UHGV virus genome: UHGV-0058544 | DNA: 19,638 nucleotides | Reading direction: 5' to 3' (one strand) | From: a virus | Shown here: in pieces, positions 3,001 to 6,000 of the stretch | Layout: every line of letters begins with the position of its first letter | How positions within the stretch are numbered: the first letter of the stretch is position 1 | Made by a program: the position numbers

Positions 3001-6000
3001 CTTGCTCACTGTTTGCCTCCTTTTCGAAGCTGGGCAGCGAACCTATCAGCTGCATCCGCGCAAGCAGAAGCAACGGAATCAAAAAATGGATCATCTCCGG
3101 TATCGCGCATCGTCAAAGCGAATGCCTCCACCCCTTGTGCCTGTATTTCTACAAGGTATGCCTTAGATGTAGTGCTTTTCGCCCCGCCTAATTCGTTATG
3201 AGCGATGTTCGCTATACATGCGATGTCTATATCTGGATGATTAATTGGGCAATGGCTAAGAATTGCCTCAAGAGCTGCTTTTTTGCTTTGGCATTCCGCC
3301 ACCATCGCCCCGCAATTGCTTTCATATTCGGCAATACGCTGTTTAGCAGCCTCCAGCTCAACACGCAGCTTCTCAAGCGTTAGAGCCATCTCCATGTTCT
3401 CTTCCAGCAGTTCAATCACATCAGGATCGCTATCATCAACTACTGTTATGCGCGATTTTTTGTAATGCTCGTCAGCATAAGTTCGTCCAGTTTTGAAGCA
3501 TCCGTCGTCCTCCATGCCGGAACAGGCATAAACAACATGTGATCCAGATATTCGCTGCATTGACATTTCCTCGCCACAAACAGAGCATTTAGGCGCTGGT
3601 TTCGGTGAAAAACGTTCACGTAACGTCTGATAGTAAAGCTCGCTCACTGGTTGCCTCCTTTGCGAATCTGTTCCGCCCATTCTTCAAGGGATTTCTCCGC
3701 ATATTCACCAGACAGGCCATCAATCGGATGCGGTTCATTAGCCAACTCTTCTTTCGCTGACAAAATCATGCGTGTAACGTCGAAAACTTCACGCAAAGAC
3801 TTATTGATAAATCCGTGATTGAACGCAGCAGCAAGACGGCTGGCGGCATAGTTAATCCCCTCGTTGCGTGCTTCCGCACGTACTTCAGCAAGGAAAGCGT
3901 CGGTGGCTGGGGTTTCAGTAACATCATCTTCCCATTCGCTAAACTCCTCACGACAAAAGTCATTAAATTCCTTCTCAGATTGCTTAAGCGAGGTATTTTC
4001 AGCAGCCATCTTCGCGCATTTATCCTCAAGGTTATCAATCGTGATTCCAGCAGAACGACACTCCCGCAACGCCGTTTCCAGTTTTGATTCAAGTTCACCG
4101 AACTTACGCACCAGATATTCAGCGTTTGTTTCGTTAACCTTTAAATCTCGTGGGATGCATTTACCTTTCAGAAAACCATCCATCTCAATTAGTGACATTT
4201 GTTTCATTTCTTCCCACTCCGCCACATCGCATTCAGATATTTGTTGTCATTAACTGAACCGAAACTATTTCTCTTAAGCAATTCCTCTCTCGATGGCATT
4301 GGCTTTACGCGTTGGCGAATAATCATTTCTGCCGGAAGAATGCCGGGATTGTATGCAAGTCCTCTCATGGTAAATTCCTCAGTCATTACTGATAGCGCCA
4401 TAGCGTGAGCGGTAATTACGCAGGCGCGGATCGATATATTCAGGGAAGTGGGTATATGTGGCTTTGCGGAATGGTCGGATTGATGTCTGGTAAATTCGCT
4501 CGCGTTCTTCTTTCTCTGCAAGCCATATACAATGGCGAAATTCCTTTTCCTCTTTCGTTTCCTGCGGTAGCGACATTATCAGGTCGTAGTTTTTTCTGAA
4601 TTTATCCAGCACCTCCGATACGGAATTGCCGGAACAGCGGCGCGCGTCGTCCGCACCATACAGAGGCGCTGGCATGATTTTCTCCTGATTAAATTGCGTG
4701 AATAGCGTGACGAGGGAAGGGGAGAGTTACTGGTTCCTCGTCTGGGTAGATAGGTTTGTTATGTTTGTGCCACTCGACATGACATGACTTGCAGAGCCAC
4801 ATCACATCGGTTGGTTTGCTGTAGTCGCAGTGGTGCGCCTGTGGTTTACATTCTGATCCGCAGCACTCACATTGTGGTGGTCGGATTAGCTTACCGTCGC
4901 GCAAAAAATTACCCACGATGATGTGGGCTTTTCTTTTCCATGGGTTGCTCTGAATGAACCGCTTTTTGGCTGCGTTACACCGTTCTCTGCCGCGTTCCGA
5001 TGATTGATATTCTCTCCTTGCTGATACTCGATGTGGCAATCCCGCGCGTTCTTTGTCGTATTCAGCCAGGCAAGCCCGGCAAGCGGCAGTTAATCCATCT
5101 CTGGATGCTCTTCTGATTTGAAAGTCCCTTTCTTCCTTCTGTTGATGGCATCTTGAGCAGATTTTCATATTCAGCTCCTAGAACGGAATATCCGAATCGT
5201 CGAAGTTCATAGGTGGTTCGCTGTGATTTCCATGCTGCTGAGGTTGCTGTCTTTGTTGCTGACCGTTATTTCGCTGAGGTGAAGACTGTTCATTGCCTCC
5301 TTGCTTGCCACCAAGCATTTGCATGGTTCCACCAACGCCTACGATAACTTCGGTAGTGAACCGATCCTGTCCGCTTTGATCCTGCCATTTTCTTGTCCGC
5401 AATTTGCCTTCAAGATAAACCTCAGAGCCTTTTCGCAGATACTCGCTGGCAATTTCTGCTAGTTTCCCGCTCATTACCACACGGTGCCACTCCGTCTGCT
5501 CCTTTTGCTCTCCAGTTTGCTTATCACGCCATTGTTCTGACGTAGCAACTGTAAGGTTTGCAAATGCCGTTCCTGATGGTGAATATCTGATTTCTGGATC
5601 ATGCCCAAGGCGACCAATAATGATCACCTTATTTACGCCTCTGCTTGCCATTTATGCCGCCTGTTTTAGTTCGTTAACTCTGATGTTCATTACCTGAACG
5701 CATTTAGCCTGCGCCTCCTCGTTGCCAGCCATTAATTGCCAGTCACGCTGATAACGCTCGATGAGTTTTTTCTTGTCAGTTTCTGTTGACGCATAATCGC
5801 TGAAGTCTTTCAGGATTTGTTCGCAGTTAGCCCCAATACTCCAATCACCAAATGGTCTGATGTTGCGCAGACGGCATCTTTCCTGAAAGACCTCGGCGTT
5901 AATGAAGGTGAAAACTATGCTGTAATGGATCCATGGTCTGCACAGCGACTTGCTGATGCGCAGACTGGTTTGCATGCTTCAGATCAATTGGTTCGTACTG

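What the first reader, a model, noticed from the sequence alone, without database searches (positions are those of the whole stretch)
5652..5830. Deletion junction fusing a leftward early-gene remnant to the middle of the coat gene; the prophage lacks all central modules
Seen in sequence: the P22-family coat reading frame is open only from 5790 (stop at 5787-5789 just upstream, no ATG, about 300 codons versus about 425 expected) and similarity to the coat mid-region begins essentially at the frame's first codons. On the opposite strand only about 45 plausible C-terminal codons of an early gene remain upstream of ssb. Between ssb and coat an intact lambdoid or P22-like prophage would carry roughly 20 kb (N/24, repressor and cro, replication, nin, Q/23, lysis, terminase, portal, scaffold). 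Inference: a single internal deletion has removed both genes' 5' ends and everything between, leaving the early-left operon and the late structural genes without their native PL and late promoters. Caveat: a misassembly would give the same picture.
Basis: partly seen in the sequence, partly recalled or inferred. Interest (0 to 1): 0.6.

Follow-up and report, generated by a model that had tools for sequence, protein, structure and literature searches.

The report
Deletion scar in a defective prophage
This is the breakpoint of a roughly 21 kb internal deletion that removed the control, replication, lysis and head-building genes of a P22-like (Sf6/HK620-type) prophage sitting at the lambda attachment site of an E. 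coli strain; it is real, evolutionarily recent, and an ordinary example of prophage decay.

Summary
Intact relatives place the join between window bases 5827 and 5828. To the left, on the minus strand, lie the last 58 codons plus stop (5652-5827) of a 235-aa Rad52/Rad22-type annealing gene (Sf6 gene 28). To the right lies the coat gene from nucleotide 411 of 1272 (5828-6689), which is Pfam P22_CoatProtein positions 138-423 of 423. In Sf6 these two points are 22,237 bp apart, or 20,988 bp without Sf6's IS911. There is no filler DNA, no IS end and no microhomology at the join.

The element measures 20,242 bp between two lambda att cores, between ybhC and ybhB-bioA, and all its other genes are full length. 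A contig from another sequencing run is 100% identical to window 1-5827. It then continues with the intact annealing gene, kil, cIII, ral, repressor, cro, cII and replication genes, so it has the undeleted structure.

Two different assemblies carry the identical junction, and the parental sequences share no repeat there, so misassembly is very unlikely. No complete E. coli genome has this junction. Verdict: a genuine, recent, private deletion producing a defective prophage. This kind of event is well known, so interest is low.

The parts
50..1120 (-). lambda-type integrase, 356 aa, full length
   Evidence: Pfam Arm-DNA-bind_1, Phage_int_M and Phage_integrase on the called gene. The lambda att core lies 39 bp outside the window start.
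1098..1316 (-). lambda-type excisionase, 72 aa
   Evidence: Pfam Exc PF07825, E = 7.6e-41, full profile.
1356..4675 (-). distal early-left accessory genes (DUF4752, DUF551, two Ead/Ea22, a 187-aa ORF, DUF2737, Abc2 anti-RecBCD at 4379-4675)
   Evidence: Gene calls and Pfam hits on the identical scaffold and Logan contig. 100% identical to L023.
4689..5168 (-). 159-aa endonuclease-like gene (Sf6 gene 26 homologue)
   Evidence: phrog_2340, E = 2.6e-47. Sf6 annotation.
5178..5651 (-). phage ssb, 157 aa, intact
   Evidence: Pfam SSB, E = 1.7e-38.
5652..5827 (-). 3' remnant (58 codons plus stop, 176 nt of 708) of the Rad52/Rad22-type single-strand annealing gene; the whole Rad52 domain is lost
   Evidence: Alignments to Sf6, IME10, NC22 and L023 all end at 5827. 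phrog_1097 positions 194-251 of 251. The intact gene in L023 has Rad52_Rad22 at residues 4-136.
5827..5828 (.). deletion junction: ...TTCGCAGT | TAGCCCCAAT...; no filler base, no shared base at the join
   Evidence: Three-way alignments with the 100%-identical left parent L023 and with right parents Sf6 and MS 198-1.
5828..6689 (+). 3' 862 nt of the Sf6-type coat gene (286 codons plus stop, residues 138-423); pseudogene lacking start codon, ribosome-binding site and N-terminal third
   Evidence: Megablast starts at Sf6 nt 5281, which is nt 411 of gene 5. Pfam P22_CoatProtein profile 138-423 of 423.
5652..5975 (-). fortuitous chimeric ORF (107 aa): 49 codons antisense to coat fused to the 58-codon annealing-gene remnant
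   Evidence: ORF list and translation. No Pfam hit. Not called as a gene anywhere in the collection.
6694..6711 (+). coat terminator stem-loop (t coat of Sf6)
   Evidence: Terminator scan. Sf6 annotates the homologous stem-loop.
6892..8801 (+). gp4-type (160 aa) and gp10-type (472 aa) tail genes, full length
   Evidence: Pfam P22_Tail-4 and Phage_stabilise. Same lengths as Sf6 and other relatives.
8823..9368 (+). NUMOD4/HNH endonuclease gene, 181 aa
   Evidence: Pfam NUMOD4 and HNH_3. phrog_59.
9355..14731 (+). tail needle, gp14-type, and ejection proteins of gp7 (230 aa), gp20 (449 aa) and gp16 (719 aa) types, all full length
   Evidence: phrog_1219. Pfam DUF2824, P22_gp7, Inj_translocase and Phage_P22_gp16. 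Same lengths in intact relative L014.
14732..16018 (-). mnt-type Arc-family repressor (83 aa, 15767-16018) followed by three cargo ORFs of unknown function (121, 111 and 107 aa)
   Evidence: Pfam Arc. phrog_4293, phrog_6324 and phrog_5962, all of unknown function. No credible defence-family hit.
16124..17286 (+). arc (46 aa) and antirepressor ant (307 aa), with sar antisense RNA at 16295-16361 on the minus strand
   Evidence: Pfam Arc, P22_AR_N and P22_AR_C. Rfam RF00262 sar, 76.6 bits.
17465..19588 (+). tailspike, 707 aa, with P22-type head-binding domain
   Evidence: Pfam Head_binding.

Best explanation
A P22-like temperate phage of the Sf6/HK620 subtype, carrying a lambda-type int/xis module, was integrated at the lambda attachment site (ybhC | ybhB-bioA) of an E. 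coli strain. While it sat in the chromosome as a prophage, one illegitimate (homology-independent) deletion joined a point inside the Rad52-type annealing gene of the leftward early operon to nucleotide 411 of the coat gene. About 21 kb was lost: the 5' end of the annealing gene, kil, cIII, ral, N, PL/OL, the repressor, cro, cII, the replication genes, the nin region, Q and the late promoter, the lysis genes, terminase, portal, scaffold and the 5' third of coat.

The product is a 20.2 kb defective prophage with intact att sites and otherwise intact genes.

Inferred, not shown: the element cannot be induced, replicate, lyse the cell or build heads. Excision is improbable, because int and xis have lost PL/N and the cII activator of PI. 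The left operon and the virion genes are largely silent. The immI unit (mnt, arc, ant, sar and the three cargo ORFs) keeps its own promoters.

A deletion that removes the repressor is survivable only if it also removes what the repressor holds in check (kil, replication, lysis). This fits the extent observed.
For: Breakpoint:
- The split lies exactly at 5827|5828 in searches of 50,697 phage records and 5,426 E. coli genomes.
- Sf6 holds both parental segments 22,237 bp apart, including a 1,249 bp IS911.
- Base-level alignments show no inserted or shared base at the join.

Fragments:
- The coat fragment covers Pfam profile positions 138-423 of 423, and the annealing-gene remnant covers only the last 58 residues.

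Progenitor structure:
- Logan contig SRR29108332_232 (L023) is 100.000% identical to window 1-5827, at the same ybhC/att site.
- It then continues with the intact 235-aa Rad52 gene, kil, cIII, ral, repressor, cro, cII and DnaB.

Reality of the junction:
- The ENA scaffold (140.6 kb) and a separately built Logan contig of run ERR414307 (17.6 kb) are both 100% identical to the window across the join.
- Because the parents share no sequence at the join, a k-mer graph assembler could bridge it only with reads that contain it (inference).

One locus, otherwise intact:
- The lambda att core GCTTTTTTATACTAA occurs on both sides, 20,242 bp apart, between ybhC and ybhB-bioA.
- All remaining genes have the lengths of their homologues in intact relatives.
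Against: - No reads were inspected.
- I could not establish that the ENA scaffold and the Logan contig come from different samples. They are independent as assemblies only.
- No 100%-identical intact relative of the right arm was found; the best were 97-99.8% over parts. A single event is therefore the simplest reading, not a proven one.
- The junction is absent from all 5,426 complete E. coli genomes and from one genome per species in GTDB. It is known from one strain lineage only.
- The silence and immobility of the remnant are inferred from gene content, not measured.
Confidence: 0.87

Rival explanations
1. Assembly artefact: the metagenome assembler wrongly joined the left arm of one prophage to the right arm of another (or of the same intact prophage), and no such molecule exists.
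For: The source is a metagenome scaffold. P22-like prophages are mosaic and common in E. coli, which in general invites chimeric joins.
Against: - An independently built Logan contig has the identical junction and 12 kb of identical flanks.
- The two parental sequences share no repeat at the join, so a graph assembler has nothing to jump across.
- The scaffold is continuous from ybhJ-ybhC through the element to ybhB-bioABFCD-uvrB, with one att core on each side.
Confidence: 0.03
2. The gap arose in several steps, for example an IS-mediated deletion followed by loss of the IS, or successive smaller deletions, rather than in one event.
For: IS elements do interrupt or flank deletions in related prophages. 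Strain B1_2 has an IS3 family element between the replication and portal genes. Strain NC22 has a different composite deletion (ral, a lysozyme fragment, then the coat 3' end). No identical intact right-arm parent was found.
Against: No IS end, target duplication, filler DNA or leftover fragment of any central gene lies at the join. The left arm has zero substitutions over 5.8 kb relative to an undeleted relative, which leaves little time for a multi-step history.
Confidence: 0.05
3. The two arms come from two different P22-like prophages integrated in tandem at the lambda att site, and the deletion ran from the first into the second.
For: The left arm has a 100% match in another sample, while the right arm has none better than 97-99.8%. 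The lambda-type int/xis with Sf6-type virion genes shows the lineage is mosaic.
Against: Mosaicism is the norm in this group, and L032 shows an intact Sf6-type virion module next to ybhB at this same site. There is no direct evidence of a tandem lysogen. This reading needs a much larger deletion (about 60 kb) that also removes an internal att site.
Confidence: 0.03
4. The 20 kb element is a functional satellite or deliberately reduced mobile element that depends on a helper P22-like phage, not a dead prophage.
For: It keeps int, xis and both att sites. P22-like helpers do mobilise islands in E. coli (PMC11773190).
Against: It has no replication or primase gene, no small terminase and hence no region where P22-type pac sites lie, and no regulator of its own for int/xis. 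Both deletion ends lie inside genes and destroy them, which is not how module boundaries look.
Confidence: 0.02

Closest known systems
Shigella phage Sf6 and coliphage HK620 (Lederbergvirus, P22-like)
   Same: Both arms align to Sf6 at 97-98% identity in Sf6 gene order: abc2, gene 26, ssb and the gene 28 remnant on the left; coat, gene 6, gp4 and gp10 types on the right. The ejection-protein genes, immI region with sar RNA, and head-binding tailspike are of the same kinds.
   Different: It lacks the 21-22 kb between gene 28 and gene 5. It uses a lambda-type Int/Xis and the lambda att site instead of the IntS/argW-type module. The needle, gp20/gp16, immI cargo and tailspike receptor domain are other mosaic alleles.
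Undeleted prophage on Logan contig SRR29108332_232 (L023)
   Same: 100% identical over window 1-5827, with the same att core and ybhC flank.
   Different: It continues past the breakpoint with the complete annealing gene and the early-left, immunity and replication regions. Its virion half is not on the contig, so the right arm could not be compared.
Other decayed P22-like prophages in E. coli (for example strains NC22 and B1_2) and classic cryptic lambdoid prophages of K-12 (DLP12, Rac, Qin)
   Same: These are prophages made defective by internal deletions or IS events that remove regulatory, replication, lysis or head genes and leave partial gene sets. Defective prophages as a general phenomenon are described in PMC2629481, PMC3945230 and PMC2669165.
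   Different: The breakpoints differ in each, and this junction occurs in none of the 5,426 complete genomes. Here only one lesion is visible and every other gene is still intact, so this is an early stage of decay.

Membership tests
P22-like (Lederbergvirus) prophage, Sf6/HK620 subtype | P22-family coat gene of the Sf6 type | tested here: met
   PF11651, E = 1.6e-95, but only profile positions 138-423. 98.9% nucleotide identity to Sf6 gene 5 from nt 411.
P22-like (Lederbergvirus) prophage, Sf6/HK620 subtype | Short-tail gene set in P22 order: gp4, gp10, needle, gp14, ejection proteins gp7/gp20/gp16, tailspike with head-binding domain | tested here: met
   Pfam P22_Tail-4, Phage_stabilise, DUF2824, P22_gp7, Inj_translocase, Phage_P22_gp16 and Head_binding in that order. 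Needle phrog_1219.
P22-like (Lederbergvirus) prophage, Sf6/HK620 subtype | immI region with mnt, arc, ant and sar antisense RNA | tested here: met
   Arc-family genes and P22_AR antirepressor. Rfam sar, 76.6 bits against a gathering score of 43.
P22-like (Lederbergvirus) prophage, Sf6/HK620 subtype | Complete genome: immunity (c2/cro), replication, Q-type antiterminator, lysis, terminase, portal, scaffold | tested here: not met
   None of these genes is in the window or between the att cores. They are present in Sf6 and in intact relatives. The element therefore derives from this family but is not a complete member.
Lambda-type site-specific integration module | Int with lambda arm-binding domain, lambda-type Xis, and the 15-bp core GCTTTTTTATACTAA at both ends between ybhC and ybhB | tested here: met
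   Arm-DNA-bind_1 and Phage_integrase, 356 aa. Exc PF07825. Cores 20,242 bp apart, with host flanks ybhJ-ybhC and ybhB-bioA. That ybhC|ybhB is the lambda attB site, and the core sequence itself, come from my own knowledge.
Defective prophage formed by internal deletion | Both flanks collinear with intact relatives and abutting at one point, with essential modules missing | tested here: met
   Alignments end at 5827 and start at 5828 in every reference.
Defective prophage formed by internal deletion | Existence of the undeleted form in a close relative | tested here: met
   L023 is 100% identical to the left arm and intact beyond the breakpoint. For the right arm only 97-99.8% relatives were found.
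Defective prophage formed by internal deletion | Inability to produce phage on induction | not testable with these tools
   Needs mitomycin C or UV induction of the strain.
IS-mediated deletion | IS element, IS end or target-site duplication at the junction | tested here: not met
   Every base on both sides of 5827|5828 is accounted for by the two phage parents.
Phage satellite / PICI | Own replication/primase module, and packaging or capsid-redirection functions, with helper-dependent induction | tested here: not met
   No primase, replication or terminase-small-subunit gene among the called genes. Contrast the EcCIMP1-like islands L034, L036 and L037.

The most novel reading that the evidence does not exclude
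The remnant is not mere debris. It would be a freshly 'grounded' prophage kept because it still serves the host or other phages. The autonomously promoted immI unit (mnt plus three unknown cargo ORFs, arc, ant, sar) could keep acting on incoming P22-like phages. The intact tailspike, needle and ejection-protein genes could serve as a recombination reservoir from which superinfecting phages pick up new host-range modules. The deletion endpoints would then reflect selection for cells that lost the repressor together with every lethal function.
Probability: 0.12. Interest if true: 0.3.

Novelty: new member of a known kind. Interest (0 to 1): 0.12.

Why it matters
Mainly for annotation. The 254-290 aa 'coat protein' and the 107-aa chimeric ORF here are pseudogene artefacts, and the 20 kb element should be labelled a defective P22-like prophage at attB-lambda, not an intact or novel small phage.

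It is also a clean natural snapshot of the first step of prophage decay. There is a single homology-independent deletion, zero substitutions relative to an undeleted relative on the left arm, and every other gene is intact. Such cases can help calibrate how prophages are inactivated, but the phenomenon itself is textbook.

Tried and rejected
- An exact 45-mer across the junction, searched in one genome per species (genome contigs), gave no hit.
- Look-up of the 107-aa chimeric ORF as a called gene found nothing on record, so there is no sign anyone's gene caller treats it as a gene.
- I searched for a 100%-identical intact right-arm parent through the tailspike, HNH and gp20 proteins. The tailspike was found only on contigs already carrying the deletion. 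The others gave mosaic relatives of 92-98% identity.
- I looked for microhomology or an IS scar at the join. There is none; only an imperfect 5-of-11 match upstream, which I disregard.
- The promoter scan of 5000-7400 found no more sites than shuffled controls (3 against 3.5 expected) and nothing created by the join.
- PADLOC and Pfam on the three immI cargo ORFs and the early-left ORFs gave only sub-threshold coiled-coil noise.
- I asked whether the 296-297 aa coat fragments common in E. coli and Shigella share this breakpoint. They do not: they begin at the coat's own internal Met-Met, upstream of our breakpoint, so they stem from other truncations or contig ends. O26 strain 11368 has an intact coat.
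- H51 looked like a 20 kb relative but is only an intact prophage whose tail end and int end were joined by the hit-joining step.
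Full report
**What is at 5652-5830.** The ORF list and the sequence show two things.
- On the plus strand a frame opens after a TGA at 5787-5789 and runs to a stop at 6687-6689. It has no ATG before 5925; the first possible start is TTG at 5817.
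- On the minus strand a reading frame ends with a stop at 5652-5654, directly abutting the ssb start at 5649-5651.

Pfam places residues 14-297 of the plus-strand frame on positions 138-423 of the 423-position P22_CoatProtein profile (E = 1.6e-95). The 58 minus-strand codons at 5652-5827 match only the last positions (194-251 of 251) of phrog_1097, which PHROGs labels 'Erf-like ssDNA annealing protein'. The intact homologue is 235 aa with a Rad52_Rad22 domain at residues 4-136. The remnant therefore keeps none of the functional domain.

**Mapping the breakpoint.** Megablast of 4600-7400 against 50,697 phage records and 5,426 complete E. coli genomes splits the query exactly between query bases 1228 and 1229, which are window 5827 and 5828.
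- The left part hits the ssb/annealing-gene region of IME10, Sf6 and others.
- The right part hits the coat-gp4-gp10 region of Sf6, HK620, N7, Gally and hundreds of prophages.

Sf6 alone contains both parents. Window 4365-5827 equals Sf6 20624-22086 (98.2%), and window 5828-8512 equals Sf6 5281-7965 (97.2%). Sf6 gene 28 spans 21911-22618 and gene 5 spans 4871-6142. So 176 of 708 nt of the annealing gene and 862 of 1272 nt of coat survive.

On the circular Sf6 map the missing stretch (22087-39043 plus 1-5280) is 22,237 bp. Without Sf6's IS911 (1,249 bp) it is 20,988 bp. By the Sf6 annotation it carries kil, cIII, ral, N, nutL, OL/PL, the repressor, OR/PR, cro, cII, the origin and replication genes, the nin genes, Q, P_R', the lysis genes, both terminase subunits, portal and scaffold.

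Base-level three-way alignments read as follows:
- left parent: ...TTCGCAGT|CAACCG
- right parent: ...CACTTGG|TAGCCCC
- product: ...TTCGCAGT|TAGCCCC

Every base is accounted for. There is no filler, no IS end and no microhomology at the join. Every other reference fetched later behaves the same way: nine loci with full-length coats start at 5828, and four separate records with the intact annealing gene stop at 5827.

**Where it sits.** The truncated coat, as called from ATG 5925, led to the source: ENA metagenome scaffold LIJU14-1_SAMEA2338690 scaffold_113 (140.6 kb), which is 100% identical to the window. The host genes on the two sides are:
- an aconitase-family gene and a pectinesterase-family gene (ybhJ and ybhC of E. 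coli);
- a PBP-family gene followed by bioA, bioB, bioF, bioC, bioD and uvrB.

The 15-bp lambda att core GCTTTTTTATACTAA occurs once on each side, 20,242 bp apart. The integrase (356 aa, lambda arm-binding domain) and Xis (72 aa, Pfam Exc) are of lambda type. That ybhC|ybhB is attB-lambda is from my own knowledge. The whole element is thus a 20.2 kb prophage remnant with both att sites. An intact version would be about 41 kb, the usual size for this group.

**Is the junction real?** The Logan contig ERR414307_13261 (17.6 kb), built independently from raw reads, is 100% identical to window 2090-19638. It shows the same ssb-truncated coat adjacency, with the coat called there as 290 aa from the TTG. 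The cluster look-up finds the 254-aa form on three contigs in ENA/NCBI and the 290-aa form on the Logan contig.

The two parental sequences share nothing at the join. An assembler that walks overlapping k-mers can produce this contig only if reads contain the junction; this is my inference, resting on my knowledge of how such assemblers work. I could not establish that the two assemblies come from different samples, and I could not see reads.

**The progenitor.** A second Logan contig, SRR29108332_232 (L023), is 100.000% identical to window 1-5827 (0 mismatches in 5,827 nt) and has the same att core and ybhC flank. From exactly the breakpoint onward it carries the complete 235-aa Rad52-type gene, kil, cIII, a 322-aa ORF, an Nmad5-domain ORF, ral, a 216-aa repressor with an S24 peptidase domain, a P22-type cro, cII, a replication initiator and DnaB. 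This is the undeleted structure. The absence of any substitution says the deletion is recent.

No equally identical intact right arm was found; the best are 97-99.8% over parts. 'One event' is therefore the most economical reading rather than a demonstrated one.

**State of the rest.** All other genes have the lengths seen in intact relatives: gp4 type 160 aa, gp10 type 472, HNH endonuclease 181, needle 233-235, gp14 type 151, gp7 type 230, gp20 type 449, gp16 type 719, mnt 83, arc 46, ant 307 and tailspike 707. The sar antisense RNA is recognised by Rfam. The coat terminator stem-loop is retained at 6694-6711. The join creates no consensus promoter, and the scan finds no more sites than shuffles do.

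The TTG at 5817 has an AGGA only one base upstream, and the ATG at 5925 has no nearby Shine-Dalgarno sequence (read). Translation of the coat fragment is therefore unlikely. A coat lacking its first 137 residues could not form the HK97-type fold's N-arm and E-loop contacts; that last point is inference from established knowledge of P22 coat structure.

**Mechanism and consequences.**
- *Shown:* one contiguous gap relative to all relatives, blunt at the base level, inside two genes, within an integrated element.
- *Inferred:* an illegitimate recombination event in the lysogen's chromosome. Candidates are topoisomerase/gyrase-mediated joining or alternative end-joining after a double-strand break; E. 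coli lacks Ku/LigD. This rests on general knowledge and was not tested here.
- *Also inferred:* a cell survives loss of the repressor only if kil, the PR-driven replication genes and the lysis genes go too. The observed span, which takes out the whole central block from the annealing gene through the repressor to mid-coat, is the kind of deletion that selection lets through.
- *Functional prediction:* no induction, replication, lysis or head assembly. int and xis are without PL/N and without cII for PI, so the element is locked in place. The immI unit remains self-sufficient.

**Comparison with what is known.** The element derives from the P22-like Sf6/HK620 group and has a lambda integration module. 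It fails the 'complete genome' criterion and is a defective prophage.

Related decayed prophages with other breakpoints exist. NC22 has a ral/lysozyme-fragment/coat-3'-end composite, and B1_2 has an IS3 family element between the replication and portal genes. Truncated coat genes are common in E. coli and Shigella assemblies but begin elsewhere. This precise junction is in none of the 5,426 complete E. coli genomes, nor in one genome per species.

Defective prophages, and their role as gene reservoirs for incoming phages, are well described (PMC2629481; PMC3945230 and PMC2669165, listed). The finding is a new instance of a familiar process.

**Verdict.** Both the observation and the interpretation stand. 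The breakpoint is now fixed to the base, the lost gene is identified, the integration site and element size are defined, an undeleted relative has been found, and the misassembly caveat is largely removed. Interest is low.

Noticed in passing
L034 9823-13455, L036 9823-13455, L037 9823-13455 (related to window 11214-12678): The window's exact 449-aa gp20-type ejection protein, next to a 701-aa gp16-type protein, is also encoded in small islands. These islands have an integrase, AlpA, AntA, a Toprim primase and PerC, but no other virion genes. DNA identity to the window is 98-99%. The islands match the EcCIMP1 type of PICI, which is mobilised by the P22-like phage Kapi1; its authors noted 'DNA transfer' genes downstream of the primase (PMC11773190).
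   Followed up: partly
window 14732-15770 (minus strand): Three ORFs (121, 111 and 107 aa) lie directly downstream of the mnt-type repressor gene, in the slot where P22-like phages carry prophage-expressed cargo. They belong to PHROG families of unknown function (4293, 6324, 5962). The middle one has a weak holin/XhlA-like match and the last is a predicted coiled coil. None has a credible defence-system hit. The stop of the last ORF (14732) abuts the gp16 stop (14731) with no intergenic base.
   Followed up: partly
window 8823-9368: A NUMOD4/HNH endonuclease gene (181 aa) sits between the gp10-type and needle genes and overlaps the needle start. The identical protein is listed in 3,062 blocks of the collection and sits in the same slot in every intact P22-like prophage shown with it. 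Other close relatives lack it (Sf6, MS 198-1, L028-L032). This presence/absence pattern fits a mobile homing-endonuclease gene.
   Followed up: partly
window 50-1316 and scaffold flanks (L008 4038-4052; L009 12740-12754): This is a mosaic of lambda-type Int/Xis and the lambda att core with Sf6/HK620-type virion genes. Sf6, HK620 and many relatives instead use an IntS-type integrase at a tRNA site. L022 and L032 show other prophages using the same ybhC|ybhB site.
   Followed up: partly
L001 10513-11232 (E. coli NC22, NZ_CP109953.1): A similar Sf6-like prophage in strain NC22 is defective through a different lesion. A frameshifted ral is followed by a lysozyme fragment and only the last ~90 codons of coat. 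Loss of the central block has therefore happened independently in this phage group.
   Followed up: no
cluster of window 5925-6689 (P0003-P0015): Many E. coli and Shigella assemblies hold 291-317 aa 'partial head proteins'. One 296-aa form is on 48 contigs. They start at or near the coat's internal Met-Met, just upstream of this window's breakpoint. They come from other truncations, IS insertions or contig ends, not from this junction.
   Followed up: partly
window 16295-16361 (minus strand): The sar antisense RNA of the P22 immI region is intact (Rfam RF00262, 76.6 bits). The ant control circuit has therefore survived in the defective prophage.
   Followed up: no
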